A stretch of DNA of 64,000 bases from Candidatus Eiseniibacteriota bacterium. GTDB taxonomy: Bacteria; Eisenbacteria; RBG-16-71-46. Below, piece by piece: positions 13,034 through 34,625 of the stretch. Under the pieces are notes generated by a model. The model was not told the DNA's origin and made no database searches. It was given only the letters and a program-made list of their open reading frames with translations. Position 1 is the first letter of the stretch, and every line of letters begins with the position of its first letter. The position numbers were made by a program, and so were the translations under genes. The DNA is taken from contig JABFRW010000055.1 of the NCBI GenBank assembly GCA_013140805.1, positions 4,102-68,101 on the forward strand, written 5' to 3'.

Positions 13034-14889
13034 GGTTTGTTCGCGGGAGCCGGTGGACCCGTGAGGCTCGAGTCGGGGGCGCTCGGTGCAACGGGTACGG
13101 GCGGCGAACTGACGGCGAGCGAATCACGCGACGAGCGATCCAGAGAGTCTGGACGGAATCGCGCCGGCAGCCCGCGTGAAGGATCGAGCATCAGCATGCC
13201 CGGCGGCACGAGCCGCCCGAGCGAATCGAATCGCGCCGCGGGCGTGTCCGGGCTTCCGTACAGCGAGCGGCCGTAGCCCGAACGCAGCAGCGAGTCCGCC
13301 ATCATCTGGCGGCGGTCCATTGCGGTCGGCGTGGGCGCCGGGGGCGGGAGCAGGTCCTTGACCGTGTCGGCGTGCGAAGGCACCGGAGGCAGTTTGATCA
13401 GCGAATCGGGCACCTGGATCCCGGACTCCTCGAGATAGTCACGCGCAGCGAGTTGCGCTTCGGTTTCGGGGTGATGGCGCACCACCTCCCACCACAGAGA
13501 GTCGGCGCGTTTGGGTTGATCGAGCTTGTTGCGAAGCACCCACGCTTCGGCCGTCATCGCCTTCGCTTCCCACGGCGTTCCCTTGAGGTCGGAAGCGAGC
13601 TTGGAGTATTCCTCGAGTGCTCGATCCGGCTTGTCGAGCTGGAACAAGTAGAGCTCGGCGCGCATCAGCGCCGCCTCTGCGATACGAACCGACGAGTCGC
13701 TGCCGGTCGAGTTCCGGTACTGCGCGAGTCTCGCCAGCTGAGCGTCGCGCTGGGACGCCTGGCCGACGAACGACGACGACGGCGACTGCAGGCGCACCTT
13801 TCCATACTCTTCGCGAGCGCGTTCGAAGTCGTCCGCGACCGTCTCGAACACGTAGCCCACGCGAAACTGCGCCTCGGCCGCGAGCGGCTGGCGCCAGTAG
13901 CGCGCGATCACGTCGTTGAAAGACTCGAGGGCTCCGTCGCGATTGCCGCTCTGGGCCAACACCGTGCCGATTCGCAGTTTGAGGCGACCCCATCGCTCCG
14001 CCTGCCGATTGCTGGTACCGCCGAAGCCGGCCGTCGCCGCGGCGGTGTCGACCAGCGCCGGCTCGCGCTCGTAGCCGATCGCGCCGCGCAGCAGTCCGAG
14101 TGCTCCATTCCAGTCGCGCGCCGCTTCGTAGCAGTCGACTTCGCGCAACAGGAAGGTGAAGCGATCGTCGTCGTTGTCCGCCCGGCGGCCCAGCTCGGCA
14201 AAGTCCGCGCGTGCCTTGTCGGTCTGCCGGCCGGTCAGCAAACCCTCAGCGCGTGCCTGCAATGCCCGCTCGCGAAGCAGGTGCTTGGGCCAGCCTTCGA
14301 CGACACGACTCGCGGCCTCGGCCGCGTCGAGCGGGCGATCGAGCGACAGCAGCACACGCGACCGCTCGAGATGCGCGTAAGGCGTCAGGTCGTGCTTGGG
14401 TGCCGAGGCGAGGAAGTCGTCAAAGGCGCCGAGCGAGGTTGCGTACTTGCGCGAGTGACGCAGTGCGAGGGCGCGATAGAACGCCGCTTCGCGTCTCAGC
14501 GAGCTCTCGGGGTAGCGCAACGGAAACTCCTCGAGCAGCTCGATCGCCTGACCCGGGTCGTCCTTGCCGATCAGCGACTTCGCCCACATCAGATAGGCAT
14601 CGTCGACCCACTTGGACTTGGCGTAGACGCCCATCACCTTCTTCGAGTAGTCGATCGCCTTGTTGTACTGCGGCACGACATTCGCGGTGGTGCCGCTCTG
14701 CGTGAGCGCGCTCGAGCCACCCTTGTCGACCGCGTACGGCAGCCCGTTCGTGGCGTTGTTGTAGTTGCGGCGCGCCAGGAAGAAGGTGTTGTAGTAGGCA
14801 CACGAAGACAGGATCACGAGCGCGAGCGCTGCCGCCGCAAGTGCCGTCGCATTCGATGCGGTGAGTCTCGAGTCGCGGGTCGGCCGCAC
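13030..14889 (-). CDS. Tetratricopeptide-repeat lipoprotein embedded in the pyr operon
   Basis: Signal plus lipobox (ALAAAALALVILSSC) and multiple TPR-like helical repeats. Start overlaps the carB stop (TGATG) and its stop overlaps the pyrK start (ATGA). Confidence 0.7.
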   Translation of the reverse strand: MRPTRDSRLTASNATALAAAALALVILSSCAYYNTFFLARRNYNNATNGLPYAVDKGGSSALTQSGTTANVVPQYNKAIDYSKKVMGVYAKSKWVDDAYLMWAKSLIGKDDPGQAIELLEEFPLRYPESSLRREAAFYRALALRHSRKYATSLGAFDDFLASAPKHDLTPYAHLERSRVLLSLDRPLDAAEAASRVVEGWPKHLLRERALQARAEGLLTGRQTDKARADFAELGRRADNDDDRFTFLLREVDCYEAARDWNGALGLLRGAIGYEREPALVDTAAATAGFGGTSNRQAERWGRLKLRIGTVLAQSGNRDGALESFNDVIARYWRQPLAAEAQFRVGYVFETVADDFERAREEYGKVRLQSPSSSFVGQASQRDAQLARLAQYRNSTGSDSSVRIAEAALMRAELYLFQLDKPDRALEEYSKLASDLKGTPWEAKAMTAEAWVLRNKLDQPKRADSLWWEVVRHHPETEAQLAARDYLEESGIQVPDSLIKLPPVPSHADTVKDLLPPPAPTPTAMDRRQMMADSLLRSGYGRSLYGSPDTPAARFDSLGRLVPPGMLMLDPSRGLPARFRPDSLDRSSRDSLAVSSPPVPVAPSAPDSSLTGPPAPANKP

Positions 14890-17800
14890 TAGATTCGCTC
14901 CTGCAGTGCGGTCACTTCGAGCGGTCCGCGCCGCATCGCTTCGATGCCGGAGGTCGCGGCAAGGGCGCCCGCGACCGTCGTGATCACCGGCACTCCGTAC
15001 GCGATCGCACTGGCGCGAATCGCCTTCTCGTCGTACTCGGACGTACGTCCGAGCGGGGTGTTGATCACGAGCTGGATCTCTGCGGATTCGATCATGTCCA
15101 CCACGTTGGGCCGCCCCTCGTGCACCTTGAAAACCTGGCGGCAGGGTACTCCGTTGCGTGCCAGGAAGCGCGCGGTGCCCCGCGTCGCCACCAGGTCATA
15201 CCCCAGTTCGACCAGTTTCTTCGCCATGAACGTGATGGCACGCTTGTCGTCGTCCCGCAGGCTCAGGAACACGGTTCCACTGTCGGGAAGCGGATCCCCC
15301 GAGCCCAGGTGAGCCTTGGCGAGTGCGCGGCCGAAGTCCATGTCGCGCCCCATCACCTCGCCGGTCGACTTCATCTCGGGGCCCAGCAGCGAGTCCTCGC
15401 CCGGGAAGCGGGCGAACGGAAGCACCGGTTTCTTGACGCTCACCATGGTGGCTTCGGGCGCTTCGGCGGGTGCGATGTCCGCCAGTCGCTCGCCCGCCAT
15501 GACACGCGCCGCGATTCGCGCAAGCGGAAGGCCGATCGCTTTGCTCACGAACGGTACGGTGCGCGAGGCGCGCGGATTGGCCTCGAGCACGAACACCTCG
15601 TCGTTGCGCACCGCGAACTGCACGTTCAGAAGCCCCTTGACGCCGAGCGCGTGAGCGAGCTTGGCCGTCACGCGGCGCACCTCGGCGACCGTTTCTTCGC
15701 CGAGCGTGAATGGCGGGATCACGCACGTGGAGTCACCGGAATGGATCCCGGCTTCCTCGATGTGCTCCATCACCGCACCGATCAGCACCGTTTCGCCATC
15801 CGCAACCGCGTCCACGTCGACTTCGAGGGCGCCGCCCAGGAACTGATCCACCAGCACCGGCTCCGCGGCCGACACGAGCGCTTCGTGCTCGAGCCAGTCG
15901 CGCAGCTCTTCCTCGCGATACACCACGCGCATGCCGCGCCCACCGAGTACGTACGAAGGCCGCACCAGCACCGGATAACCGAGCGTACGCGCCGCGTGCA
16001 GCGCCTCGGCCGGCGATGCGGCGGTGAGACTCGGTGGCTGCAGCAGGCCCAGCTCCTGAATGAGCAATCGGAATCGCTCACGATTCTCGGCCAGGTCGAG
16101 CCCGTCGAACGGCGTGCCCCACAACGGCACGCCCGCCTCGTGGAGCGATCGCGCCAGCTTGAGCGGCGTCTGCCCGCCGAGCTGAACGATTACGCCGATC
16201 GGCTTCTCAGCCTCGACCACGTTCAGCACGTCTTCCGTAGTGAGCGGCTCGAAGTAGAGACGACTCGAGATGTCGTAGTCGGTGCTCACCGTCTCGGGAT
16301 TCGAGTTGACGATCAGCACATCGTAGCCGCGCTCCTTCAGCTCGAGCGCCGCCTGCACGCAGCAGTAGTCGAACTCGAGCCCCTGTCCGATTCGATTGGG
16401 CCCGCTGCCCAAAATGATCACGCGCGGCCGCGTGCTCGTGGGCGTCTCGGTCTCATCTTCGTAGGTCGAGTAGAAGTAGGGCGTCTCGGCTGCGAATTCG
16501 GCGCCGCAGGTGTCGACGGCCTTCATCACCGGCAGGATCCCTTCCTCGTGACGGCGTCTCCGTACTTCGACCTCGGTGGTATCGAGTCGGTCCGCGAGCG
16601 TCAAATCCGAGATGCCGAGCCGCTTGGCTTCGTAGACGAGCCCCTCGCTCCATGCCGCTTCGGAGTCGCGGGTCGCGACCGTCGTCAGCTCGTGATCGAG
16701 ATCGGTGATGCGCTTCATCTGATGCAGGAACCACGGGTCCACGCCGGTCGCCGCCGCCACCGACTCCGGGCTCTCACCGCTTGCGAGCACGCGGAACAGG
16801 TCACGCAGTCGATCGGCGTACGGCTCGCGGATCGCCTCGATCAGTCCCGGCAGCTCGATCGCGGCCGCCGGCCCCGGCAGGAGGCCGCTCCCGCTCTCGA
16901 GTCCACGCCAGCCCTTGAGCAGCGCCTCGGGGAAGTTGCGTCCGATCGCCATCACCTCGCCCACCGACTTCATGCGCGTGCCGAGGCGCGGATCGGCGCC
17001 GCGGAACTTTTCGAACGCCCAGCGCGGGATCTTGACCACGCAGTAATCGAGCGTCGGCTCGAAACACGCCGGCGTCTTCCGGGTGATGTCGTTCGGGATC
17101 TCGTCGAGCGTGAGCCCGGCCGCGAGCAGCGCCGCGATCTTTGCGATCGGGAACCCGGTGGCCTTGCTCGCGAGCGCCGAGGAGCGGGAGACGCGCGGAT
17201 TCATTTCGATGATGCGCATCTCGCCCGTATCCGGGTGCACGGCGAACTGGATGTTCGATCCGCCCGCTTCGACCTTGATCGCCCGCATCACGCGAAGTGC
17301 TGCGTCGCGCATCTCCTGATAGCAGACATCCGAGAGCGTCTGCGCGGGCGCCACCGTGATGCTGTCACCGGTATGAACGCCGAGCGGATCGAAGTTCTCA
17401 ATCGAGCACACGATCACCACGTTGTCCGCCCGATCGCGCATCACTTCCAGCTCGAATTCCTTCCAGCCGACCAGACACTCTTCGATCAGAATCGAGCCGG
17501 AGCCGCTCTGCGCGATTGCCAGTCGCGCCACTTCGCGCAGCTGCCGGCGATCGTGTACGAGCCCCGAACCCTGCCCGCCGAGCGTGAACGAAGCGCGAAT
17601 CACGAGCGGATACCCGAGCTGCTCGGCCAGCTCCACGGCACCGTGCACGGTGTCCACGTAGCCGGACTTGGGAAGCTGGAGCCCCTCGGCTTCCATGGCG
17701 TGCTTGAAGCGATTGCGATCTTCCGCCGTCTCGATCGCATCGAGCGACGCGCCGATCAACTGCACGTTGTGCTTGGCGAGCACGCCTGAATGCGCGAGCG

Positions 17801-18101
17801 CGATCGCCAGGTTGAGTGCCGTCTGGCCGCCGAGAGTCGGCAGCAGCGCGTCCGGCCTTTCGCGCTCGATGATGCGCTCGGCGATCTCGGGGCGCAGCGG
17901 CTCGATGTAGGTGCGATCGGCGAACTCGGGGTCGGTCATGATCGTGGCCGGGTTCGAGTTGAGCAGCACCACTTCGATGCCGAGTGAGCGCAGCGCGCGA
18001 CAACCCTGGGTCCCCGAGTAGTCGAACTCGCACGCCTGCCCGATCACGATCGGACCAGCGCCGAGGATCAGAACCTTCTTGAGACCGGGGCGGACGGGCA
18101 T
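14889..18101 (-). CDS. carB: Carbamoyl-phosphate synthase large subunit
   Basis: [32 protein letters not shown]... with two ATP-grasp halves and an MGS-like C-terminus; about 1070 aa. ATG at 18101 overlaps the carA stop (TGATG). Confidence 0.95.
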
Positions 18102-19276
18102 CAGCGGGCCTTTCCGGTCGCAAGCTCGGCCGGTTTCATCGTCGACTTCTCGCCCCGCCGCTTCGCGACCGCGTCTGCGAACGCTTTGAACCACGGGCGC
18201 GAGTCATGCGGGCCGGGGGCGGACTCAGGGTGGTACTGACACGCGAACACCGGGAGCTTGCGATGCACCATGCCCTCGAGTGAGCGGTCGTTGCCGCTCA
18301 CGTGCGTGATCTCGAACTCGCCCTCCGGCATCGAGTCGACGTCCACATAGAAGCCGTGGTTCTGCGAGGTCACCTCGACGGCATGGGTGCGCAGGTCGAT
18401 CACCGGGTGATTGATGCCTCGATGTCCGAACTTGAGCTTGCCGCTTTTTCCCCCGAACGCGAGGCCGATCAACTGGTGGCCCAGGCAGATGCCGAGCGTG
18501 GGCACCGCCTTCGCCACTTCGCGCGTGGCGTCGATCGCGAAGTCGAGCGGCTCCGGGTCGCCCGGGCCATTCGACAGCACGACGCCATCGGGCTTCATCG
18601 CGAGCACCTCGCGCGCGGGCGTGCGCGCCGGCACCACACGCACGCGGAAGCCCTCGATGCGCAGCCGCCGCAGAATGTTGTACTTGACGCCAAAGTCGTA
18701 GACCAGGGCGAGAGGCTTCGCGGCATCGGCCGCGTCGTCGGTCTCGGCAGGCCCGAAAGCGCCCCACCAGTAGGGCTCGCTGGTCGTGACGAGATCGGCG
18801 AGTGCCAGGCCCATCATGCTCGGGCTCCTGCGCGCCTTCTCGACCAGCACGTCGGCGTCGGACTCGGTCGCCGAGAGACAGCCACGCATGACGCCGGCGG
18901 AGCGCAGGTGACGCGTGAGTGCTCGGGTATCGATGCCGCAGATCCCGGGCACGTTGCGCTGCTCGAGCAAGTCTTGAAGCCGCCCAGTCGAGCGCCAGTT
19001 GCTTGGCACCTCGCATACCTCGCGACAGATCATGCCCTGCGCGCGGAGGCGATCGCTCTCGAAGTCCTCGGAGTTGACGCCGTAATTGCCCATGAGCGGA
19101 TAAGTGAAGGTGACGATCTGGCCGCAGTAGGAAGGATCGCTCAACACTTCCTGGTAGCCGCTCATTGCGGTGTTGAACACCACTTCGCCGGTCGTCTCGG
19201 TGGGCGCACCGAACGACTCGCCGCGGAATACGCGGCCATCTTCCAGCGCGAGGATCGCCGGCGGGCGACGCTTCAC
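18101..19276 (-). CDS. carA: Carbamoyl-phosphate synthase small subunit (glutamine amidotransferase)
   Basis: [50 protein letters not shown]...GICLGHQLI (class I GATase). GTG at 19276 overlaps the pyrC stop (GTGA). Confidence 0.9.
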
Positions 19277-20601
19277 ATCGCCCCCACGGCCGCGCCCGTT
19301 TCGGCGCCGCGACGAATCACGACTGCGGGAAGCGCGTGCGTGATCCGACCGCCGCACATCGTGAGTGCTGCGCGACCGCGAACCTGCATCCCACCAAACG
19401 GCGTGTTGCGGCCCTTCGAGTAGAAGGCTGCAGGCTCGACCGTCCAGCGCTCCTCCGGCTCGAGCAGCACCAGGTCGGCGGGCGAGCCCACTTCGAGCGA
19501 AACCTGCGGAAGCCCGAACACGCGCCGCGGCGCATCGGTCCACAGCTCGATCGCGCGAGCGAGCGACAGGTGACCGGGCTCGACGAGCCCGGTCACGGTG
19601 AGCGCGATCGCGGTCTCGAGCCCCACGATCCCGAAGGGTGCCGCATCAAAGGTCTGGCGCTTCTCTTCGAAGGTGTGGGGGGCGTGATCGGTGGTGAGGC
19701 AATCGATCGTTCCATCCACGATCGCTTCGATGGTCGCAAGGCGGTCGTGCTCGGCGCGCAGTGGCGGATTCATCTTGGCGTGTGTGTCGTAATCGCCGAC
19801 GGCTTCCTCGGTGAGCATCCAGTAGTGCGGGCAGGTTTCGCCGGTCACGTTCAGGCCGCGCCGCCTCGCATGGCGCAAGGCTTCGAACGAGCTCGCGCAC
19901 GAGAGGTGTGCCAGGTGCACGCGACCGCGCGTAAGCGCCGCGAGATCGACGTCGCGCCACGCCATCACGCTCTCGGCCTGGCTCGGAATGCCGCGGATCC
20001 CGAGCCGCGTTGCGACCGCGCCTTCGTTCATGTGGCCATCGCCCTTGAGCGTGAGGTCTTCCTCGTGACACACGATCGGCAGCCCGAGCGGACGCGAGTA
20101 TTCGAGTGCCCGGCGCATGATCGCCGCACTCATTACCGGGCGCCCGTCGTCCGAGAACGCGACCGCACCCGCGGCGGCCAGTGCATGCATCTCGGCGAGC
20201 TGCTCGCCCTTCTGGCCGAGTGTCACCACGGCGATCGGATGCACGCGGCAGTGGCCAGACTCGGCCGCGCGCTCGAGTACCCAGCGCACCCACGCTACGT
20301 TGTCGACCACCGGGTTCGTGTTGGGCATGCACGCGACCGCGGTGAATCCGCCCGCCGCAGCCGCGCGCGTGCCGGTCGCGATCGACTCCTTTGAGGTCTG
20401 TCCGGGCTCTCGCAGGTGTACGTGCAGATCGACGAGCCCCGGGGCGAGTACCCGGCCCGCGGCCTCGATCAGCGTGTCGGACTTGATCTCGGCGGATTGC
20501 GACGGGCGCACCTCGACGATCGCGCCGTCTCGCATCGCGACATCGATCGTCGCGCCGCTCTTCCAATGGCGTGCGCCCTGCAGGATCGTCACGCCGCTCA
20601 C
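19273..20601 (-). CDS. pyrC: Dihydroorotase (multifunctional-complex type)
   Basis: VTILQGARHWKSGATIDVAMRDGAIVEV...GLVDLHVHLREPGQTSKESIATGTRAAAAGGFT...DHAPH. GTG at 20601 overlaps the pyrB stop (GTGA); an alternative in-frame ATG lies at 20634. Confidence 0.85.
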   Translation of the reverse strand: MSGVTILQGARHWKSGATIDVAMRDGAIVEVRPSQSAEIKSDTLIEAAGRVLAPGLVDLHVHLREPGQTSKESIATGTRAAAAGGFTAVACMPNTNPVVDNVAWVRWVLERAAESGHCRVHPIAVVTLGQKGEQLAEMHALAAAGAVAFSDDGRPVMSAAIMRRALEYSRPLGLPIVCHEEDLTLKGDGHMNEGAVATRLGIRGIPSQAESVMAWRDVDLAALTRGRVHLAHLSCASSFEALRHARRRGLNVTGETCPHYWMLTEEAVGDYDTHAKMNPPLRAEHDRLATIEAIVDGTIDCLTTDHAPHTFEEKRQTFDAAPFGIVGLETAIALTVTGLVEPGHLSLARAIELWTDAPRRVFGLPQVSLEVGSPADLVLLEPEERWTVEPAAFYSKGRNTPFGGMQVRGRAALTMCGGRITHALPAVVIRRGAETGAAVGAM

Positions 20602-21587
20602 GCGGCCGCCTTCGCGAGCGAGCCCGCGCACCATTCGAGCACCGCGCAGCGCACCGCCACACCGTTCTCGACCTGGTCGAAGATCACCGAGCGTTCGCCG
20701 TCGGCCACATCGGGCGCAATCTCGACGCCGCGATTCATGGGCCCCGGGTGCATGACGACTGCGTGCGGCTTCATGCGCGAGACGCGCTCGGCGTTGAGCC
20801 CCCACTCGCGCGCGTACTCGCCCATGCTCGGCAGCAGCCCGCACTCCATGCGCTCGCGCTGGATGCGCAGCGCCATCGCGGCGTCTGCGCCCTCGAGCGC
20901 CTCGTCGGCCGAATGCGCGACACGCACGCCGAGCGATTCGACTTCGGCCGGCAGCAGCGTCGCCGGGCCCGCGACCGTGATCGTCGCACCCAGCTTGCGC
21001 AGTCCGTGGATTGCGGAGCGCGCGACGCGTGAGTGCGCGATGTCACCGACGATCGCCATGCGGCGACCCTCGAATCGACCGTCCCAAGCGTCGCGCAGCG
21101 TCAGCAGGTCGAGCAGGCCCTGCGTCGGGTGCTCGTGCGTGCCGTCGCCGCCATTCACCACGATCGCGTCCAAGTGCCTCGCCAGGTGCGCGGCCGAACC
21201 CGATGACGGATGCCGCACCACCAGCACGTCCACGTTCATCGCGGCGATCACGCGCGCGGTATCGAGCAATGTCTCGCCCTTGGATACCGAAGAGCCGCTC
21301 GCGGAGAACGAAACGCGCGTAGCCCCGACCCGCTGCTCCGCCAGCTCGAACGAAATGCGCGTGCGCGTCGAGTCCTCGAAGAACGCGTTGCACACGGTCA
21401 CGCCTCGAGGCCTCTCGCACGGCAGTTCACGCGTGCGGGCCCGCTCGCGCCATTTGGCCGCATCCTCGAGGAGTGCGAGCAGCGTCTCGCGCTGCAGGTG
21501 TTCGAGGCCGAGCAGATGGCGCGGATGAGACGAAGCCCCTGCGCCGCTGGGCGCCGGGGCGTGTGGGTGCAATCGGGCATGGTTCAT
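20598..21587 (-). CDS. pyrB: Aspartate carbamoyltransferase catalytic subunit
   Basis: MNHARLHP...HLLGLEHL...FFEDSTRTRISFELA...HPTQGLLDLLT...PGPMNRGVEI. ATG at 21587 is preceded by AAAGGGAGAG; an alternative GTG lies at 21605. Confidence 0.9.
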   Translation of the reverse strand: MNHARLHPHAPAPSGAGASSHPRHLLGLEHLQRETLLALLEDAAKWRERARTRELPCERPRGVTVCNAFFEDSTRTRISFELAEQRVGATRVSFSASGSSVSKGETLLDTARVIAAMNVDVLVVRHPSSGSAAHLARHLDAIVVNGGDGTHEHPTQGLLDLLTLRDAWDGRFEGRRMAIVGDIAHSRVARSAIHGLRKLGATITVAGPATLLPAEVESLGVRVAHSADEALEGADAAMALRIQRERMECGLLPSMGEYAREWGLNAERVSRMKPHAVVMHPGPMNRGVEIAPDVADGERSVIFDQVENGVAVRCAVLEWCAGSLAKAAA

Positions 21588-21625
21588 CGGCTCTCCCTTT
21601 GCCACCTCTCGGGGCGGCCTTAAAG
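21588..21625 (-). promoter_or_regulatory. Putative PyrR-binding RNA motif over the pyrB ribosome-binding site
   Basis: Minus-strand leader GGCCGCCCCGAGAGGUGGCAAAGGGAGAGCCG-AUG matches the PyrR binding-loop consensus (UCCAGAGAGGCUGGCAAGG) with one or two changes. It directly abuts the RBS, which would favour translational repression. Confidence 0.55.
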
Positions 21626-21674
21626 GATGTGCGTGATCGGGAACTGGGGCGCGACTTTAGGTCACGCGTCTCCC

Positions 21675-22637
21675 CTACGCAACCCGATTTCCGGCACGAT
21701 CGAGATCGTGCTCGACCGGCTTCGGAGCGACACTCCGTGCCTTCGCCGGAGCCAGCGTGATCAGCGCGACTGCCCCCACGATCAGCGCACCCGACAGGAT
21801 CACGCGTGCCGTGATGGCCTCACCTCCGAACGCCCAGCCGAGCAGCACGGCGACGATCGGGTTCACGAACGCGTAGGTCGAAACCCGCGCAGGCGTCGTC
21901 GCGCTCAGCAGCCACGCATAGGCGGTGAATCCCACGATCGATCCGAACACGATCAGGTAGAGCATCGCGCTCACGGCGCGCGGAGTGATCGTCGCCGCGG
22001 CGAGCCGCGGCAGCTCCCCGGTCGCGACGATCGGCACCGTGAAGAGCGCGCCGGCGCACAGCATCTGCATCGCGGCACCCATCAGTTTGGAGGCCGGCAT
22101 CTCGAGCTTCGGCGCCTGCAACGAGCCATACGCCCACGCCAGCGAGCCGATGGTGAGCACGATGGCCGGAACGACCGGCATTGCGCCGCTCGCGCGCGTT
22201 GCCGCCGGGCCGACCAGCATCACGATGCCTGCAAATCCGACTGCGAGCCCCGCGATCACGGCGGGTGCGGGCGTCTTGTGCTCGAGCACGAACGGCAGGA
22301 TCGCCATCCACAGCGGCACCGTGCAGACGATCAGCGAGACGAGCCCCGAGGGCGCGTGCTGAGAGGACCAGGTCACGCCTGCGTTTCCCATGAACAGCAT
22401 GAGTCCGCCGAGGATCAGAGAGGAGCGCCACTGAGCGGCGGTCGGCAGTGCTGCGCCGCGCCACCTCAGGATCGCGAACAGCGCGCCACCCGCGATCAGG
22501 AATCGAATCCCGCCGAGCGAAAAGGGCGGGAACGATTCGAGCGCCCAGTGGATGCCGAGGTAGGTCGAGCCCCAGATCACGTACACACAGGCAAACGCGA
22601 TCAGGATGCGGGCACGGAGACTGCGCGGCATGTTCAT
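21675..22637 (-). CDS. EamA/DMT-superfamily transporter
   Basis: MNMPRSLRARILIAFACVYVIWGSTYLGIHWALE... with ten predicted TM helices and two EamA repeats. ATG at 22637 overlaps the lrp stop by 4 bp. Confidence 0.85.
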   Translation of the reverse strand: MNMPRSLRARILIAFACVYVIWGSTYLGIHWALESFPPFSLGGIRFLIAGGALFAILRWRGAALPTAAQWRSSLILGGLMLFMGNAGVTWSSQHAPSGLVSLIVCTVPLWMAILPFVLEHKTPAPAVIAGLAVGFAGIVMLVGPAATRASGAMPVVPAIVLTIGSLAWAYGSLQAPKLEMPASKLMGAAMQMLCAGALFTVPIVATGELPRLAAATITPRAVSAMLYLIVFGSIVGFTAYAWLLSATTPARVSTYAFVNPIVAVLLGWAFGGEAITARVILSGALIVGAVALITLAPAKARSVAPKPVEHDLDRAGNRVA

Positions 22638-23131
22638 CGCCGCGCTCCGGACTTCTTGCCGTTGGTCGTCACTGCCTCGCCCGCGGCAAGCGGCAGCGTC
22701 ATCGATTCCTTGAACGTGCCCAGCACGATCGTGGACTGCGTCGAACGCACGGTCGCGATCGAGCCAACGCGATCGCGCAACAGCCGGCCGAACTCCTCGG
22801 TGTTCTCGCACCGCACCTTGAGCAGGTAGCAGTCCTGCCCCGCCACATGGTGCACCTCGAGCACGTCGGGAATCTCGACCAGCGACTTGGCGGTGTCGTG
22901 CTCGCCGGTGCGCTCGTCGGTTCGCACCAGCACGAACGCGAGCAGCGAACGCCCGACTTGGACCGGCGCAACCTGCGCGTGGTAGCCGGTGATCACGCCA
23001 CGTTCTTCGAGCCGGCGGATGCGTTCGAGCACTGCCGAGGGCGCCATTCCGACCTGCCTCGCGATCTCGGCGTTCGCGATGCGGCCATCCTTCTGAAGCG
23101 CGGAAATGATCTTGAGATCGATCTCGTCCAT
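22634..23131 (-). CDS. Lrp/AsnC-family transcriptional regulator
   Basis: MDEIDLKIISALQKDGRIANAEIARQVGMAPSAVLERIRRLEERGVI (HTH) followed by a RAM domain. Co-oriented and overlapping with the EamA exporter. Confidence 0.85.
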   Translation of the reverse strand: MDEIDLKIISALQKDGRIANAEIARQVGMAPSAVLERIRRLEERGVITGYHAQVAPVQVGRSLLAFVLVRTDERTGEHDTAKSLVEIPDVLEVHHVAGQDCYLLKVRCENTEEFGRLLRDRVGSIATVRSTQSTIVLGTFKESMTLPLAAGEAVTTNGKKSGARR

Positions 23132-23314
23132 CGCCTTGTCCTCCCGTGAGGCGCAACGTGACACATTCTGCAGATGCGCTACAACGGAGAACGATCGTTT
23201 GTGAAATGAAGAACTATCTGAACAATCGTCTGTCGGTGCCCTCATTACAGGACGGATCCCCGTGCGACACGGTGGGTTTCGCGTTCGGCGGGGTGCGCGA
23301 GCCCGCGCGGCGGA

Positions 23315-27867: not shown

Positions 27868-29585
<1,718 letters not shown>

Positions 29586-29700: not shown

Positions 29701-32700
29701 CTAGTGCTCCCCGGCACCCGCCCGAAGCTCTGCCGCCTCTCGCGTCACTCCGCAGGCGTCGAACAGGGCCATCGCCCGCTCCCGCTCGGCCGCCGCCTCG
29801 GCGCTTCGGCCGGCGGCCTCGAGTGCTCTCGACCGTGCCCCCCGCACCCGCGCCGCCTCGATCCGGATCCCATGCGGCTCAAACGCCGCCAGCGCCTGGT
29901 CGTACGCCGAGATCGCCTGGTCGAACTGCGCGCGAGTGGCCGCAAGCAGGCCGAACGCCAGGTGCGAGAGCCCGAGCCCAAAGATCAGCCCGAGACGGTT
30001 GCTCAGTTCGAGGGCGACGTTCGCGTGCTGTTCGGCCATGTCGAACCGGCCGCACAGGGTCGCCGCCATCGAGGCGGTCGCCTGGCATTGATCCATCGAG
30101 ACCAGATTCTCGGTCCCTCTGCGGACCTCGATCGACTCGATCGCCGCCGCATACGCGGCCTCCCCGTTGCCCTTGCGCAGCTCGAGCTGCGCGCGCGCCA
30201 GCGCGACGACCGCCAGCGTCAGGCCGTGACCGAGCTGCCGAGCACGCTCCGCGCCATCGCGCAGCAAGGCCTCGGCCTCGGGCTCACGATTGCGTTCCCA
30301 CAGCATCCAGGCGTGGTTGAGCGACAGGATGCAGGTCAACCGGGACTCACCGATCTCCGCCGCCAGCTGGTAGGCGCGCTCCCCGTATCCGATCGCCTCC
30401 ACGAGGTCGCCGAGCTGCGACAAGGACCACATCACGCACCAGCCACCCCACGCCTCGCGGTCGAGCGAGCCGGTGCGCTCGCCAATCCGCAGGTCCGCGT
30501 GCGCGTGCTCGAGCCCTTCGCGAAAGCGCCCGATGCTGTTGAGGTCCTCCGCCATGAACTCGTGGCCCGAGGCTTCGAATCCGGGCAGCCTGGCCTCGCG
30601 TCCTGCGTCGACGCACAGCTGCGCCCAGCGCATGCTCTCTTCGAACTCGCACAGGTGCTGATGTGAGCCCGCGAGAAACGGCACGATCGCGAACTTGACC
30701 CACGGCGCATTCTCGATCCCGGGCGTCGCGAGCGCTTCGTGCAGCAGCGCGATCGCGCGCCGATGCTCCATGCGGTAGTGGTGAATGCGCGCGATGTTGC
30801 CCTTGACGATCGCCAGCTCGAACGGCTGAGTCGCGGGGTCCAGTTCGCGGTTCGCGGCGGCCAGATAGGCTTCGCCCTCCGCGCGCCCCACGCGCACGCA
30901 TGCTTCGCCCGCGATCGCGTTGATCCGGCCGCGCTCGGTCGCCGTGGTGCAGAGCTTGAGCGCCTCCTCGCAGGTGCGCAGCGTGGTCGGCGTATCGCCG
31001 CGCAGCGAATGCGCCATCGCGAGTGCGCGCAGCGCAACCAGGAGGCGCGCCGGATCGTTCAACGCTTCCGCGCACTCGCGCGCGCGCTCTCCGTACTGGG
31101 CCGCCTCGTCGAGTGCGAACACGTGCTGGGCGCGCTCGGCCGCCGCCGTCGTCCACTGGTAGGCGCGCTCGAGGTCGCCGCTATGCATGAAGTGAAATGC
31201 CAGATCTTCGACGCGCGACGGCTCGCGCGCCTCGATCGCCTCGCCGATGCGCTGGTGCGATCGCCGACGCCGTACCGGATTCTGCTCTTCGTAGAGCACT
31301 TCGCGAATCTTGTCGTGCGTGAACGCGAAGGTCTCGTTCTCGCGCGCCACCATGAGCTGCGCGGTGGCCGCTTCGTCGAGGGCGTCGAGCAGCGCGTCCT
31401 CGGAGCGCTCCGACGAGGCGGCCAGATCCGCGAACGCGAAGGTCTTGCCGAGCACCGCCGCGACGTGGAGCGTTTCGATGCATTCGCGACTCAACTTGTC
31501 GAGGCGCCGGCCAATCGCCGCCTTCACACTCTGCGGGATCGCCAGCTCGTGGACCGCGCGGCGCTGCCACTCACCGCCCTCGCGGTAGATCTCGCCCTGA
31601 TCGATCAGCGACTTGACCACTTCCTCGATGAAGAACGGATTGCCCTCGGTCTCGCGATGGATGACCTCGCCGAAGTCGGCCGTCACCGACTCCTGCCCCA
31701 TCAACGTCGCGAGCAGCGCGTCGGTGTCGGCGCGCCCCAGCCGGCCGAGCGCGATGCGCGTCGCGATGCGCTCGCGATTCCACTCGACCAGCGCAGCCGC
31801 GAGCGGATGCGCGCGATCCAGCTCGACCTCGCGATAGGCCGCAAGCATCAGCACGCGCGAATCGCCGAGCTGACGCAGCAGGTAGCGCAGCAGTCCGAGC
31901 GTGCCGGTATCCGCCCACTGCACGTCGTCGAGCATCACCACCAATCCGCGCGCGGCCGCGAGCGCGCGCAGGAAGCGCGCGAACGCGTCGAACAGGCGCA
32001 GTCGCTCCTCGTGCGGAGCCAGCGACGAAATCGGTGGGTAGGGCCCGAGGCGCGCGTTGATCTCGGGCACCAGGCGCGCCAGTTCCTCGGCCGCATCGCC
32101 GAGTCCGCTCCGCATCGATTCGGCGCTGCGTCCACGCGCCCACGCCGACAGCGCCTCGACGAACGGCAGATAGGGCGTGGTGGCTTCGAACTCGTAGCAG
32201 CCGCCCATCAGCACCGCGGCCCCGTCGACGCGCGCGGCCACGATCAGCTCGCGCGCGAAGCGCGTCTTGCCGACCCCCGGCTCGCCCGACACCAGCGCAA
32301 GCTGCGCGCGCCCCGCGAGTGCCGAACGCCACACCTCGCGCAGGCGCTCGAACTCGCTGGCGCGCCCCACCATGCGGCCCCGCACCAGCTGGTCGAGCAG
32401 CGTGGTCGCGGGCTCCGCGTTCGCTTCGACCGCGGGCAGCGTGCAGATGCGCTCCAGCTCTTTCGCGGCTTCGGCCGCCGTGGCGAAGCGTTGCTCCGGC
32501 GCCTTGGCGAGCAGCCGCAACACGAAGCGTTCGAGCGCCGGCGATAGATCGGGCCGAAACGCGCGCGGCGGCGACGGCGGCGAATGCAGATGCTGCGAGA
32601 TCACGGCGAGCGCATCGGAGCCGGTGAACGGCAGGCGACCTGCGATCAGCTCGTAGAGCAGCACCCCGAGCGCGTAGAGGTCGGCGCGGCCGTCGATCTC

Positions 32701-33294
32701 GCCGCCGAGCGCCTGCTCGGGTGACAGGTAGTTCGCGGTGCCGAGGATGGTGCCCTGCGCGGTCTCGGAGCCGCTCGCGCTCGCGCGCGCGACACCGAGA
32801 TCCGAGAGCTTGATGCGCGGTGTTTCGACAGGCCCGGTCGCCAGCAGGTTCTCGGGCTTCAAGTCGCGATGCACCACGCCGTGGGCGTGCGCGTGGGCGA
32901 GTGCGTCGAGCACCTGCTTCGCGACCACCACCGCGCCTTCGGTGGTGCGCGGCGGACGCTCGCGCAGGTTCTCTCCCAGCACCAGCTCCATGACGAGATA
33001 CGGCTGGACGCCGTCCTCGCCGGCATCGTGTACCGCCACGATGTGCGGATGATTGAGCGACGCCGCGATGCGCGCTTCGCGCAGCAGCCGGGCGCGACCC
33101 GCGGTGTCGAACGCGGCCGGCGAGACGACCTTCACCGCGACGTCGCGCGCGAGCTGCGGGTCGTGCGCACGCCACACCTCGCCCATGCCGCCGCGCCCCA
33201 GCCACGCGGTCAGGCGATAGCGCCCCGCGATGATGTCTCCGGCCTGCCGCGACGGCAGCGCGTTGATGGGAGTGGTCGGGTCGAACTCGCTCAT
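29701..33294 (-). CDS. Ser/Thr protein kinase fused to an AAA+/STAND ATPase and TPR repeats (PknK/AfsR-like regulator)
   Basis: MSEFDPTT...YRLTAWLGRGGMGEVWRA...VAVKVV...HRDLKPENLL...DLGVA (Hanks kinase). Then LALVSGEPGVGKTRFAREL (Walker A) and a long TPR/MalT-like C-terminus. ATG at 33294. Confidence 0.85.
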   Translation of the reverse strand: MSEFDPTTPINALPSRQAGDIIAGRYRLTAWLGRGGMGEVWRAHDPQLARDVAVKVVSPAAFDTAGRARLLREARIAASLNHPHIVAVHDAGEDGVQPYLVMELVLGENLRERPPRTTEGAVVVAKQVLDALAHAHAHGVVHRDLKPENLLATGPVETPRIKLSDLGVARASASGSETAQGTILGTANYLSPEQALGGEIDGRADLYALGVLLYELIAGRLPFTGSDALAVISQHLHSPPSPPRAFRPDLSPALERFVLRLLAKAPEQRFATAAEAAKELERICTLPAVEANAEPATTLLDQLVRGRMVGRASEFERLREVWRSALAGRAQLALVSGEPGVGKTRFARELIVAARVDGAAVLMGGCYEFEATTPYLPFVEALSAWARGRSAESMRSGLGDAAEELARLVPEINARLGPYPPISSLAPHEERLRLFDAFARFLRALAAARGLVVMLDDVQWADTGTLGLLRYLLRQLGDSRVLMLAAYREVELDRAHPLAAALVEWNRERIATRIALGRLGRADTDALLATLMGQESVTADFGEVIHRETEGNPFFIEEVVKSLIDQGEIYREGGEWQRRAVHELAIPQSVKAAIGRRLDKLSRECIETLHVAAVLGKTFAFADLAASSERSEDALLDALDEAATAQLMVARENETFAFTHDKIREVLYEEQNPVRRRRSHQRIGEAIEAREPSRVEDLAFHFMHSGDLERAYQWTTAAAERAQHVFALDEAAQYGERARECAEALNDPARLLVALRALAMAHSLRGDTPTTLRTCEEALKLCTTATERGRINAIAGEACVRVGRAEGEAYLAAANRELDPATQPFELAIVKGNIARIHHYRMEHRRAIALLHEALATPGIENAPWVKFAIVPFLAGSHQHLCEFEESMRWAQLCVDAGREARLPGFEASGHEFMAEDLNSIGRFREGLEHAHADLRIGERTGSLDREAWGGWCVMWSLSQLGDLVEAIGYGERAYQLAAEIGESRLTCILSLNHAWMLWERNREPEAEALLRDGAERARQLGHGLTLAVVALARAQLELRKGNGEAAYAAAIESIEVRRGTENLVSMDQCQATASMAATLCGRFDMAEQHANVALELSNRLGLIFGLGLSHLAFGLLAATRAQFDQAISAYDQALAAFEPHGIRIEAARVRGARSRALEAAGRSAEAAAERERAMALFDACGVTREAAELRAGAGEH

Positions 33295-33320
33295 GGCAAG
33301 ACACTGTAACCCGACCGGGG

Positions 33321-34625
33321 CTACACCACGCCCTCGAGCAATGAAGCGAGTCGCTTCATCCCTGCTTCGATCGCCTCGACCGAGACCGCACCCACCGACA
33401 GTCGCATCCACCCGTTCTCGCGCCGGAGCGCAAACGCCTGGAACGGGACGACGGCGAGCCCCGCTTCCTCGAGCAGCAGCCTTCGCAGGTCCTCGTTGGT
33501 GCGGATCTCGCGGCCCGCGACCGTACGACCGAACAGATCGAGGCGCATCGACAGGTAGAGCGTCCCCTCCGGTTCGACCGATTCGATCGGGAATCCGCGC
33601 TTCTGCAGCTGGGATAGCCCGCGGTGAAGTGCGCTGAGCCGCGCGCGAAGCCGCTCGTGCATCTCGGCGCGGAAGGCGGCGCAGGCGGGTGCGTCGTCGA
33701 GGAACTGCGCGATCGCGATCTGCTCCGCCTTGGGCGCCCACGCGCCGATGTGACCCAGCAGGTCCGAGAGCCGCGCGGCGACCGCGGGTGCGGCGAGCGC
33801 CCAGCCCACGCGCAGTCCGGTCGCGGCGAACGACTTCGAGGCGGCGTCGATCAGCACCGTGTAAGGCATCACCTCAGGCAGCAGCACCGGCGGTGCCGTC
33901 GCGCGGCCGTTCTCGAATGCGAGCAACCAGTACACCTGGTCGAACAACAGGAACACCAGCCGTTCGCCACGCGCCGAACGCCGCGCATTCTCGTCCACTA
34001 CGATTTTCGAGATCGCTCGCAGCACTTCGGGGTCCATCGTGGTGCCGGTCGGATTGAGCGGAGTCGAGAGCGAGATCAGCTGCACGTCGCCGATCACAGA
34101 CGCGACCTGCTCGGGCGTGGGGTGGAACGCATGCTCGCGCGTGACTTCCAGCGGCAGCGGCCTGGCGCCGGCCAGATACGCATAGTGGTTGTTGTTCCAC
34201 GACGGCACCGGGAACGCCACTGCGTCACCCCGATCGAGCAGCGCCAGGTAGCTGGCATAGATGAGCGGTCGCGCACCGCCCGCGATCACGACCGATTCGA
34301 TCGGGTAGTCGAGCCCGAGCTCGCGCTTGAAGAACCGCGCGACCGACTGACGCAGCTCGAGCACTCCGTTGGACGGCGGGTAGTTCGAGTGTCCGGCGGC
34401 CAGTGCTCTCGGGATTCCTTCGAGCAGCGCCTTCGGCAGAGGAAACTCGCGCGGATCGAAGTCGCCGACCGTGAGATTGCAGACCGGAGTGCCCGATGCG
34501 ACCAGCGCGCGCACCTCGGCGGCGATGCGCAACACCTCGGAGCCGATCAGCCCACGCGCGAGCTTCGAGAGCGAAGCGTCGGTGACGTCGCCGGCGGCAG
34601 ACGCGGTGCGGGCGTCCGGGCTCAC
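33321..34625 (-). CDS. PLP-dependent aminotransferase, class I/II
   Basis: ...NLTVGDFDPREFPLP...AGHSNYPPSNGVLELRQSVARFF...VLIDAASKSFAATGLRVGW (Lys in SKSF). GTG at 34625 overlaps the glyS stop (GTGA). Confidence 0.8.
   Translation of the reverse strand: MSPDARTASAAGDVTDASLSKLARGLIGSEVLRIAAEVRALVASGTPVCNLTVGDFDPREFPLPKALLEGIPRALAAGHSNYPPSNGVLELRQSVARFFKRELGLDYPIESVVIAGGARPLIYASYLALLDRGDAVAFPVPSWNNNHYAYLAGARPLPLEVTREHAFHPTPEQVASVIGDVQLISLSTPLNPTGTTMDPEVLRAISKIVVDENARRSARGERLVFLLFDQVYWLLAFENGRATAPPVLLPEVMPYTVLIDAASKSFAATGLRVGWALAAPAVAARLSDLLGHIGAWAPKAEQIAIAQFLDDAPACAAFRAEMHERLRARLSALHRGLSQLQKRGFPIESVEPEGTLYLSMRLDLFGRTVAGREIRTNEDLRRLLLEEAGLAVVPFQAFALRRENGWMRLSVGAVSVEAIEAGMKRLASLLEGVV

What the first reader, a model, noticed from the sequence alone, without database searches (positions are those of the whole stretch)
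21588..21625. PyrR-binding RNA motif over the pyrB RBS, with pyrR encoded 6 kb away
The pyrB leader reads CCCCGAGAGGUGGCAAAGGGAGAGCCG-AUG. This closely matches the PyrR binding-loop consensus (UCCAGAGAGGCUGGCAAGG), and it ends on the Shine-Dalgarno. No terminator hairpin sits between the motif and the start codon, so regulation would be by translational occlusion, as described for mycobacteria, rather than Bacillus-type attenuation. Here pyrR (27868..28416) is unlinked from the operon: six unrelated genes separate them.
Basis: partly seen in the sequence, partly recalled or inferred. Interest (0 to 1): 0.55.

Follow-up and report, generated by a model that had tools for sequence, protein, structure and literature searches.

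The report
PyrR switch on pyrB ribosome site
A real binding hairpin for the pyrimidine-sensing protein PyrR covers the ribosome-binding site of the pyrB operon in an uncultured Eisenbacteria-like bacterium; it is a known kind of switch, but relatives also carry a transcription terminator inside the first codons of the enzyme gene, and this genome has lost that terminator's U-run.

Summary
At 21626..21591 (minus strand) there is a hairpin: CCUUU / AAG bulge / 6-bp stem / CCGAGA loop / AAAGG. Its 3' arm runs into the pyrB Shine-Dalgarno, and the ATG follows 8 nt later. A covariance model built without the window, which included Thermus and Meiothermus sites, scores it 51 bits (E 2e-10). It is the only site in the 64 kb. 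The stems covary across 16 sequences. PyrR is genuine (27868..28416), and six unrelated genes separate it from pyrB.

The interpretation of translational occlusion is supported but incomplete. In about 40 Eisenbacteria-type relatives the same hairpin, SD and ATG are followed by a GC hairpin and a T5-8 run. This terminator starts 47-58 nt into the pyrB ORF, inside a variable in-frame N-terminal extension. The layout matches the one I verified in Thermus, where a translating ribosome is thought to prevent termination. The difference is that here the leader peptide is fused to PyrB and pyrR lies elsewhere.

In this window the ORF hairpin survives (21560..21535), but its U-tract has decayed to UUCGUCUC. 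Translational repression is therefore probably the main step, passed on through overlapping stop/start codons of pyrB-pyrC-carA-carB. This is a new variant of a known kind, of moderate interest.

The parts
21677..21682 (-). -35-like hexamer TTGCGT of the pyrB promoter. It overlaps the EamA stop codon TAG at 21677..21675.
   Evidence: A TTGnnn-N16-18-TAnnnT pattern lies 21-36 nt upstream of the hairpin in 29 of 30 loci examined. The generic consensus scan does not call it, so support comes only from its conserved position.
21654..21659 (-). -10-like hexamer TAAAGT, 17 nt after the -35 and 27 nt before the hairpin.
   Evidence: sequence.
21596..21626 (-). PyrR-binding hairpin. Lower stem CCUUU (21626-21622) pairs with AAAGG (21600-21596). 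The 5' bulge is AAG (21621-21619). Upper stem GCCGCC (21618-21613) pairs with GGUGGC (21606-21601). The loop is CCGAGA (21612-21607).
   Evidence: RF00515 alignment; MFE fold; model R1 at 55.1 bits; leave-window-out model R2 at 51.1 bits, E 2.4e-10; covariation.
21591..21600 (-). Shine-Dalgarno region AAAGGGAGAG, with core GGGAG at 21597-21593. Its 5' half forms the 3' arm of the lower stem.
   Evidence: Sequence. The same overlap of AAGG with a purine-rich SD occurs in all relatives.
21585..21587 (-). pyrB start codon ATG, 8 nt after the last paired base of the hairpin.
   Evidence: It is in frame with the ATCase core. An equivalent ATG is in frame in all 17 genome loci and in the 23 metagenome loci where a start could be assigned.
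21522..21587 (-). 22-codon N-terminal extension of PyrB (MNHARLHPHAPAPSGAGASSHP) that precedes the conserved RHLLGLE core. It corresponds to the leader peptide, fused in frame.
   Evidence: The Pfam and NCBIfam ATCase models start at residue 23. The extension is 20-60 aa and variable in relatives.
21535..21560 (-). GC hairpin inside the pyrB ORF: GCCCC-G-GCGCC CAGC GGCGC-A-GGGGC, about -21 kcal/mol. It is homologous to the terminator stem of relatives.
   Evidence: RF00515 aligns it to the terminator stem. It is nearly identical to the L017 stem, which carries TTTTTT.
21525..21534 (-). Decayed U-tract UUCGUCUCAU, where relatives have U5-8.
   Evidence: The terminator scan finds nothing here, but with the same criteria it calls the L017 site.
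20598..21587 (-). pyrB (aspartate carbamoyltransferase, 329 aa).
   Evidence: Pfam OTCace_N and OTCace; NCBIfam NF002032 at 373.9 bits.
19273..20601 (-). pyrC (dihydroorotase). Its GTG start overlaps the pyrB stop (GTGA, 20601-20598).
18101..19276 (-). carA. Its GTG start overlaps the pyrC stop (GTGA, 19276-19273).
14889..18101 (-). carB. Its ATG overlaps the carA stop (TGATG, 18103-18099).
27868..28416 (-). pyrR (182 aa), the trans-acting regulator. It lies 6.3 kb upstream on the same strand and has no PyrR site of its own.
   Evidence: NCBIfam PyrR equivalogs at 248, 237 and 219 bits, all above their cutoffs. PDB matches to Thermus 1UFR (228 bits) and B. subtilis 1A3C (214 bits). Models R1 and R2 find no second site.

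Best explanation
The element is the PyrR operator of the pyrB-pyrC-carA-carB operon. The proposed mechanism has four steps.

1. The operon is transcribed from its own promoter about 20 nt upstream of the hairpin.

2. When pyrimidine nucleotides are plentiful, PyrR binds the hairpin at 21626..21596. The dependence on UMP/UTP is inferred from the family. PyrR itself is made from a separate gene at 27868..28416.

3. The 3' arm of the hairpin is the 5' half of the pyrB SD, and the ATG lies 8 nt further on. A bound, stabilised hairpin should therefore keep the 30S subunit off the mRNA. This step is inferred from geometry.

4. In the clade's standard design the block on initiation is converted into transcription attenuation. 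An intrinsic terminator sits 47-58 nt into the pyrB ORF. It forms unless a ribosome that started at the pyrB ATG is translating through its 5' arm. No antiterminator RNA is needed, and the leader peptide is simply the N-terminal tail of PyrB.

In this particular genome the terminator stem is intact, but the U-run has decayed to UUCGUCUC. Termination is probably weak or lost. Repression is then mainly translational and is passed to pyrC, carA and carB through their overlapping stop/start codons.

What is shown: the motif, its conservation and covariation, its overlap with the SD, the in-ORF terminator in relatives, and the Thermus parallel. What is inferred: PyrR binding, the nucleotide dependence, ribosome-mediated antitermination, and the functional state of the window's hairpin.
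For: Motif and structure: (51.1 bits, E 2.4e-10 with a model that excludes the window; it is the only site in 64 kb).

Covariation: 95.5% of cells are paired, 5 pairs change on both sides, 19 compensatory cells, and 0 of 500 shuffles reach the observed score. Slid registers give 42-61% pairing.

Regulator: PyrR is genuine.

Conservation: there is exactly one strong site per locus, directly upstream of pyrB, in 17 genome and 28 metagenome relatives. A promoter-like element sits at a conserved position upstream.

In-ORF terminator: the ATG is in frame with PyrB in every locus where a start could be assigned. A GC hairpin plus T5-8 run starts 47-58 nt after the ATG in 16 of 18 genome-set leaders and about 26 of 28 metagenome loci. 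The T-run falls in all three codon phases. TTT:TTC is 41:3 in the first 25 codons against 10:208 in the rest of 30 pyrB ORFs, and the remaining 28.5 kb (72% GC) holds no T5+ run. The generic scan calls the L017 site a terminator, and RF00515 aligns it to its terminator stem at 41.9 bits.

No antiterminator: the MFE of the naked leader contains the PyrR hairpin and the terminator together. Structures without the terminator are 8-22 kcal/mol (mostly 14-21) less stable.

Thermus and Meiothermus loci, fetched and read: a PyrR hairpin over the SD, then an ATG, then a short leader ORF that contains the terminator and overlaps the pyrR start. Model R1 scores them 44.4 and 37.3 bits.

Coupling: stop/start overlaps GTGA, GTGA and TGATG.
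Against: Nothing here is experimental. PyrR binding, effector dependence and termination have not been tested for any Eisenbacteria sequence.

RF00515 does not reach its gathering score: 30.3 bits in the window and 41.9 bits in L017, against 54.

The window lacks the U-run, so the attenuation half of the model may not apply to this genome. L008 and L044 lack it as well, and L047 has only U4.

Covariation in the terminator stem is modest (77.5% paired) and is confounded by register shifts and by the conserved peptide APAPxGAG.

In some loci, such as L001, the G-rich SD can pair with the C-rich 5' arm of the terminator. A weak RNA-only antiterminator is therefore not fully excluded.

The promoter is supported only by conserved position. 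The consensus scan does not call it.
Confidence: 0.75

Rival explanations
1. The window's leader is still a working Thermus-type attenuator. The hairpin at 21560..21535 followed by UUCGUCU still terminates transcription when PyrR blocks translation of pyrB, so control is mainly transcriptional.
For: The stem is fully preserved at -21 kcal/mol and matches the L017 stem arm for arm. Two U residues directly follow the stem. Consensus terminator-like sites in a 20-kb stretch of this window are no more frequent than in shuffled sequence (6 found against 8.6 expected), so this organism may not depend on long U-runs.
Against: About 40 relatives keep U5-8 under clear nucleotide-level selection, which implies the U-run matters. 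The window has 4 U in 8 nt and fails the same scan that calls L017.
Confidence: 0.25
2. This is a Bacillus-type RNA switch. PyrR stabilises the hairpin as an anti-antiterminator, and without PyrR the SD region pairs with the 5' arm of the downstream hairpin to form an antiterminator. Ribosomes play no part.
For: The G-rich SD (GGGGG) is complementary to the CCCC in the 5' arm of the terminator. In L001 the constrained fold uses this pairing. RF00515 aligns over the whole region.
Against: The alternative structures are 8-22 kcal/mol (mostly 14-21) weaker than the hairpin plus terminator, and they are not consistent between loci. RF00515's antiterminator segment is the unaligned, low-probability part of the match. 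The start codon is always in frame and at a fixed distance (47-58 nt) from the T-run. An RNA-only switch would not require that.
Confidence: 0.07
3. The match is a chance resemblance or a non-functional relic, and pyrB is not regulated by PyrR here.
For: The Rfam score is below the gathering threshold. pyrR is not adjacent to pyrB.
Against: A model that excludes the window gives E 2.4e-10. The position is conserved in front of pyrB in about 45 loci, with compensatory changes. An intact PyrR gene lies in the same window.
Confidence: 0.03
4. The ORF hairpin and T-run of relatives reflect selection on the PyrB N-terminal peptide (APAPxGAGxFF), not on the RNA.
For: The peptide motif is fairly well conserved, and the reading frame relative to the stem is mostly constant.
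Against: The T-run occupies all three codon phases. Phe codons there are TTT 41:3, against 10:208 in the rest of the ORF, in genes with 72% GC. Stem sequences differ but remain complementary, for example L003, L011 and L012. The rest of the extension varies in length and sequence. The same hairpin and U-run lies in a separate, non-homologous leader ORF in Thermus and Meiothermus.
Confidence: 0.05

Closest known systems
Thermus pyr operon attenuation (Thermus strain ZO5; Van de Casteele et al. 1997, J Bacteriol 179:3470). The paper is cited from memory because it is not in the held library. The architecture was verified here on a Thermus genome locus (L054) and a Meiothermus locus (L055).
   Same: A PyrR hairpin of the same sequence type (CCUUUAA-stem-CNGNGA-stem-AAAGG) has its 3' arm in the SD. 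The ATG follows a few nt later. An intrinsic terminator lies inside the translated region about 50-60 nt after the ATG. There is no antiterminator, and the translating ribosome is the proposed antiterminator.
   Different: In Thermus and Meiothermus the leader is a separate 28-35-codon ORF that overlaps the start of pyrR, which is the first operon gene. Here the leader codons are fused in frame to PyrB, pyrB is the first gene, and pyrR lies 6.3 kb away without a site of its own. The window itself has lost the U-run.
Mycobacterium smegmatis pyr operon: PyrR-dependent translational repression (Fields & Switzer 2007, J Bacteriol 189:6236). The title is confirmed through reference lists; the details are from my own knowledge.
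   Same: The PyrR-binding hairpin sequesters the ribosome-binding site of the first gene, and no canonical terminator is present. This is the state the window appears to be in.
   Different: In mycobacteria the first, autoregulated gene is pyrR. Here it is pyrB, and pyrR is outside the regulated unit. The window retains a terminator-derived hairpin in the ORF, and its relatives have full terminators.
Bacillus subtilis pyr attenuators / Rfam RF00515 (PyrR binding site).
   Same: The binding hairpin shares the same consensus, and the PyrR protein is homologous (214 bits to 1A3C). Among relatives, the terminator stem tested in L017 aligns to RF00515's terminator.
   Different: There is no antiterminator or anti-antiterminator alternation. 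The hairpin overlaps an SD. The scores (30-42 bits) are below the gathering score of 54. There is a single site rather than three.
E. coli pyrBI leader-peptide attenuation (from my own knowledge; Turnbough & Switzer 2008 review, not held).
   Same: A terminator inside a translated leader upstream of, or at, pyrB is suppressed by a closely following ribosome.
   Different: In E. coli the sensor is UTP-dependent RNA polymerase pausing, not a protein that blocks initiation. The leader peptide is a separate ORF, and there is no PyrR.

Membership tests
Rfam RF00515 (PyrR binding site) | Covariance-model score at or above the curated gathering score (54 bits) | tested here: not met
   The window scores 30.3 bits and gives no gathering hit. 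Relatives do not reach it either (L017 scores 41.9 bits). Thermus and Meiothermus also fall short at 35.5 and 40 bits.
Rfam RF00515 (PyrR binding site) | Binding hairpin: lower stem CCUUU/AAAGG, 5' A-rich bulge, 6-bp upper stem, hexaloop CNGNGA followed by GG | tested here: met
   It is aligned at high posterior probability and folds as the MFE. The stems covary across 16 sequences.
Rfam RF00515 (PyrR binding site) | Antiterminator that alternates with the binding hairpin and the terminator (Firmicute expression platform) | tested here: not met
   No stable or conserved alternative pairing was found. The middle of the model is unaligned.
PyrR regulon element (any platform) | Located in the 5' leader of a pyrimidine biosynthesis or salvage operon | tested here: met
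   It lies directly upstream of pyrB-pyrC-carA-carB and downstream of a promoter-like element at a conserved position.
PyrR regulon element (any platform) | A PyrR protein is encoded by the genome | tested here: met
   27868..28416. NCBIfam PyrR equivalogs score above their cutoffs. It scores 228 bits to Thermus PyrR 1UFR.
PyrR regulon element (any platform) | Specific, UMP/UTP-stimulated binding of PyrR to the RNA | not testable with these tools
   This needs EMSA or filter binding with recombinant protein.
Thermus-type ribosome-dependent PyrR attenuator | PyrR hairpin overlaps the SD of the first translated ORF | tested here: met
   The same arrangement is seen in L054 and L055.
Thermus-type ribosome-dependent PyrR attenuator | Intrinsic terminator (GC hairpin plus U-run) inside that ORF, about 50-60 nt after its start | tested here: not met
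   The window has the hairpin at 21560..21535, but its tail is UUCGUCUC and the scan makes no terminator call. About 42 of 46 relatives do meet this feature.
Thermus-type ribosome-dependent PyrR attenuator | Separate short leader ORF that overlaps the start of the first structural gene (pyrR) | tested here: not met
   The leader codons are in frame with PyrB and no stop codon intervenes. The first gene is pyrB, not pyrR.
Mycobacterial-type PyrR translational repression | Hairpin sequesters the RBS and there is no intrinsic terminator in the leader | tested here: met
   The caveat is that a terminator-derived stem without a U-run is still present in the ORF.
Mycobacterial-type PyrR translational repression | The regulated first gene is pyrR (autoregulation) | tested here: not met
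   pyrR is 6.3 kb upstream and no site precedes it.

The most novel reading that the evidence does not exclude
Across the uncultured phylum Eisenbacteria, the pyr operon may be controlled by a 'self-translated attenuator'. In this design an intrinsic terminator is written into the first ~18 codons of the enzyme gene itself, with the leader peptide fused to PyrB. A trans-encoded PyrR then switches transcription of the whole operon by deciding whether the first ribosome loads. Several lineages, including this window, L008 and L044, would have independently lost the U-run. They would be caught in transition from Thermus-type attenuation to mycobacterial-type pure translational repression.
Probability: 0.5. 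Interest if true: 0.55.

Novelty: new variant of a known kind. Interest (0 to 1): 0.42.

Why it matters
First, it extends PyrR RNA regulation to a candidate phylum that has no cultured members. Standard annotation misses the site, because RF00515 at its gathering score finds nothing in the window, in ten relatives, or even in Thermus.

Second, it offers a natural series of expression platforms built on one binding hairpin:
- a separate leader ORF with a terminator (Thermus, Meiothermus, L056)
- a leader fused to the enzyme, with a terminator (most Eisenbacteria)
- a fused leader whose U-run has decayed (this window, L008, L044)

This series could be used to test how ribosome-dependent attenuation turns into pure translational repression.

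Third, it shows that intrinsic terminators can sit inside annotated coding sequence. Terminator predictors and gene callers usually assume they do not.

The practical impact is modest, because the regulator, its ligand logic and both mechanisms are already known in principle.

Tried and rejected
- **Rfam at gathering thresholds.** It gave no hits on the window or on ten loci. This says little, because the Thermus-type leaders also fall below threshold.
- **MAFFT alignments of whole leaders (A1, A2).** Terminal gaps were placed instead of gaps in the variable internal loop, so lower-stem columns were out of register. I used equal-length 36-nt segments (A4, A6) and a manual parse instead.
- **Terminator alignment A3.** It has register shifts and gives only weak covariation statistics. 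I relied instead on per-sequence folds, the codon phase of the T-run and Phe codon usage.
- **Second PyrR site.** I looked upstream of pyrR and elsewhere in the window. Only noise-level hits appeared: 7.7-11 bits at positions inside ORFs, and a 12-bit hit upstream of pyrR in L004 that I did not pursue.
- **Bacillus-type antiterminator.** It is not supported by constrained folding.
- **N-extended PyrR proteins from gene callers as possible leader-PyrR fusions.** In L056 the SD-proximal ATG opens a separate leader ORF whose TGA overlaps the pyrR GTG, so the 202-aa call is probably an artefact. L057 is ambiguous. L018 (Acidimicrobiia) does look like a true in-frame leader-PyrR fusion.
- **Literature.** Van de Casteele 1997, Fields & Switzer 2007 and Turnbough & Switzer 2008 are not held. 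Statements about them come from memory, apart from the Fields & Switzer title, which I saw in reference lists.
- **Closer relatives of the window.** The metagenome scan found none above about 74% PyrB identity, so the time of U-run loss cannot be dated.

Full report
**1. What is at the coordinates**

The minus strand between 21632 and 21585 reads CACAUCCUUUAAGGCCGCCCCGAGAGGUGGCAAAGGGAGAGCCGAUG. RNAfold places it in one hairpin: UCCUUU / AAG / GCCGCC / CCGAGA / GGUGGC / A / AAGGGA.

The ORF that follows is pyrB, confirmed by Pfam OTCace_N and OTCace and by an NCBIfam ATCase equivalog at 374 bits. After it come pyrC, carA and carB. Their starts overlap the preceding stops: GTGA at 20601-20598, GTGA at 19276-19273 and TGATG at 18103-18099.

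The only plausible pyrB start is the ATG at 21587. It is in frame and lies 5 nt after the GGGAG core at 21597-21593. The ATCase profiles begin at residue 23, so PyrB carries a 22-residue N-terminal extension.

**2. Is it a PyrR site, and is it more than chance?**

Rfam at gathering thresholds reports nothing in the window. A sensitive scan of 21400-21800 finds RF00515 (PyrR) at 30.3 bits against a gathering score of 54, with E 0.022. The binding hairpin is aligned almost perfectly. The rest of the model is aligned poorly, except that its terminator stem falls on a GC hairpin inside the pyrB ORF.

RF00515 describes the Firmicute anti-antiterminator/terminator layout, so I built hairpin-only models. 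PyrB relatives at 60-71% identity came from Candidatus Eisenbacteria MAGs (L001-L020) and from metagenomes (L021-L053). Model R1 finds exactly one strong site per locus, always just upstream of pyrB. In two outgroup loci (L016, L018) pyrR abuts pyrB, and there the site lies upstream of pyrR.

Model R2 was built from 16 sites that exclude the window and include Thermus and Meiothermus. It scores the window site 51.1 bits, E 2.4e-10. The search used filters off on both strands of all 64 kb, and the next hit was 11 bits.

On that 16-sequence alignment:
- 95.5% of cells form standard pairs, against 83% in shuffles and 42-61% in slid registers
- five of eleven pairs show changes on both sides, giving 19 compensatory cells
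- none of 500 shuffles reaches the observed value

**3. The regulator**

ORF 27868..28416 matches three NCBIfam PyrR equivalog models above their cutoffs (248, 237 and 219 bits). It also scores 228 bits to Thermus PyrR (1UFR) and 214 bits to B. subtilis PyrR (1A3C).

Six ORFs on the same strand lie between pyrR and pyrB: orf261, a HAMP histidine kinase, MgtE, orf155, an AsnC/Lrp regulator and an EamA transporter.

In eight relatives pyrR also lies upstream of pyrB on the same strand, at 1.4-6.3 kb. In L001 and L010 it is absent from the 10 kb upstream. The pair is thus loosely syntenic, with variable insertions.

No PyrR site precedes pyrR in the window. A promoter-like TTGCGT-N17-TAAAGT (21682-21654) lies 27 nt upstream of the hairpin. 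An equivalent element sits at the same distance in 29 of 30 loci. The generic consensus scan does not call it.

**4.

In the relatives the leader does not stop at the ATG. In every Eisenbacteria-type locus where a start could be assigned, the ATG after the SD is in frame with the ATCase core and no stop codon intervenes. The extension between them is 20-60 residues long and variable.

A GC-rich hairpin (-11 to -23 kcal/mol) directly followed by a T5-8 run begins 47-58 nt after that ATG. This holds in 16 of 18 leaders of the genome set, which includes the window, and in about 26 of 28 metagenome loci. The sets are not de-replicated.

Three results show that this is selection on the RNA:
- The T-run falls in all three codon phases.
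- In 30 pyrB ORFs with mean GC of 72%, Phe codons in the first 25 codons are TTT:TTC = 41:3, against 10:208 in the rest. The remaining 28.5 kb holds no T5+ run.
- Stem sequences differ between lineages but stay complementary.

The generic scan calls the L017 example a terminator. RF00515 aligns it to its terminator stem at 41.9 bits.

Folding the naked leaders gives the PyrR hairpin and the terminator together as the MFE. Structures without the terminator are 8-22 kcal/mol (mostly 14-21) less stable, and no consistent antiterminator appears.

**5. Comparison with Thermus, tested rather than recalled**

I recalled that the Thermus ZO5 pyr operon was proposed to use a translating ribosome instead of an antiterminator (Van de Casteele et al. 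1997). That paper is not held. I therefore fetched a Thermus and a Meiothermus pyrR locus through their PyrR proteins and read the leaders.

Both have the same hairpin, for example CCUUUAAACCGGUCCCGCGAGGCCGGAAAGGGGGAG. Model R1 scores them 44.4 and 37.3 bits. The hairpin overlaps an SD, and an ATG follows a few nt later. A 28-35-codon leader ORF contains a GC hairpin plus U5-7 about 50-60 nt after the ATG. The ORF's end overlaps the pyrR start.

The Eisenbacteria design has the same logic, with three differences:
- the leader codons are fused in frame to the first enzyme
- that enzyme is PyrB, not PyrR
- pyrR sits elsewhere and is not preceded by a site

L016/L042 and L056 have separate leader ORFs coupled to pyrR. 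L018 (Acidimicrobiia) appears to have a leader fused to PyrR. Several layouts therefore coexist in nature.

**6. The state of this window**

The ORF hairpin is intact: 21560..21535, GCCCC-G-GCGCC CAGC GGCGC-A-GGGGC, -21 kcal/mol. It matches the L017 stem arm for arm. The tail, however, is UUCGUCUCAU instead of UUUUUUG, and the scan that calls L017 does not call it.

L008 and L044 also lack a U-run. L047, whose N-terminal peptide is closest to the window's, has only U4.

The most likely reading is that this genome has lost most or all of the termination step and relies on the block to translation initiation. The overlapping stop/start codons would carry that block to pyrC, carA and carB. Residual termination cannot be excluded. 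I give it about 0.25.

**7. Mechanism and confidence**

- PyrR-binding site: about 0.9.
- Action through occlusion of the pyrB SD and start codon: about 0.8. This is inferred from geometry and from the Thermus and mycobacterial precedents.
- Ribosome-dependent attenuation in the relatives: about 0.7. This is inferred from architecture, nucleotide-level selection and folding.
- Mainly translational control in this window: about 0.6.

Effector dependence on UMP/UTP and PRPP is assumed from the family and was not tested.

**8. Novelty and score**

The regulator, the hairpin and both modes of action are known. Four things are new:
- the phylum
- the failure of standard Rfam annotation to detect the site
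- pyrB as the target, with pyrR outside the regulated unit
- a terminator embedded in the enzyme's own N-terminal codons, with apparent repeated decay of its U-run

I could not find this fused layout described. My literature access was limited, so the claim is weak.

I rate the finding a new variant of a known kind, with interest 0.42.

Noticed in passing
window 21535..21560 (minus), tail 21525..21534: A GC hairpin (-21 kcal/mol) lies inside pyrB codons 10-18. It is homologous to the in-ORF intrinsic terminator of relatives, but its U-run has decayed to UUCGUCUC.
   Followed up: yes
L008:9944-10020; L044:460-540; L047:2265-2345: Three other lineages also lack or have shortened the in-ORF U-run. 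L008 has the tail GAGUCACC and encodes PPPP in the stem region. L044 has CUGUUGC. L047 has CCUUUUCAUC. This suggests repeated loss of the termination step.
   Followed up: partly
L016:189-382 (same as L042): In this outgroup locus pyrR abuts pyrB. The PyrR hairpin over an AAGGAG SD is followed by a leader ORF of about 50 codons (TTG at 233). Its TGA overlaps the pyrR ATG (ATGA). No obvious U-run terminator was seen in the leader.
   Followed up: partly
L018:2040-2150 (Acidimicrobiia MAG): A PyrR hairpin with a compensated lower stem (CCGUG/ACGG instead of CCUUU/AAAGG, in the A6 register) sits over the SD. The ATG at 2074 is in frame with pyrR. The hairpin GGCCGCCCC-GGG-GGGCGGCC followed by GUUUCGCGUU lies inside the N-terminal extension, so this looks like a leader-PyrR fusion with a weak U-tract.
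   Followed up: partly
window 28537..28564 (minus): A canonical-looking terminator, CGCCGCUCGC-CCUC-GCGAGCGGCG-UUUU, follows the stop of orf373. After it comes a TTGCCG-N18-TAAGGT promoter-like element in front of pyrR. pyrR therefore seems to have its own transcription unit, with no PyrR site.
   Followed up: no
window 29701..33741 (minus): A 1346-aa protein combines a Ser/Thr protein kinase domain, an AAA_16/STAND-type NTPase and TPR repeats. It lies two genes upstream of pyrR (orf373 lies between them).
   Followed up: no
window 21675..23245 (minus): An AsnC/Lrp-family regulator (22634..23245) and an EamA-family transporter (21675..about 22600) lie directly upstream of the pyrB promoter. 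The EamA stop codon overlaps the -35 hexamer. Among the relatives, EamA at this position is shared only with L007.
   Followed up: partly
L054:2383-2492; L055:2358-2458: Rfam RF00515 scores the Thermus and Meiothermus pyr leaders only 35.5 and 40 bits, below the gathering score of 54. The curated family therefore misses ribosome-dependent PyrR leaders in general.
   Followed up: yes
L056:601-1209 (P0120); L057:601-1224 (P0085): Gene callers annotate N-extended PyrR proteins of 202-207 aa whose extra residues come from the leader and terminator region. In L056 the real leader is a separate ORF in another frame, so such extended PyrR calls are probably annotation artefacts caused by these leaders.
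   Followed up: partly
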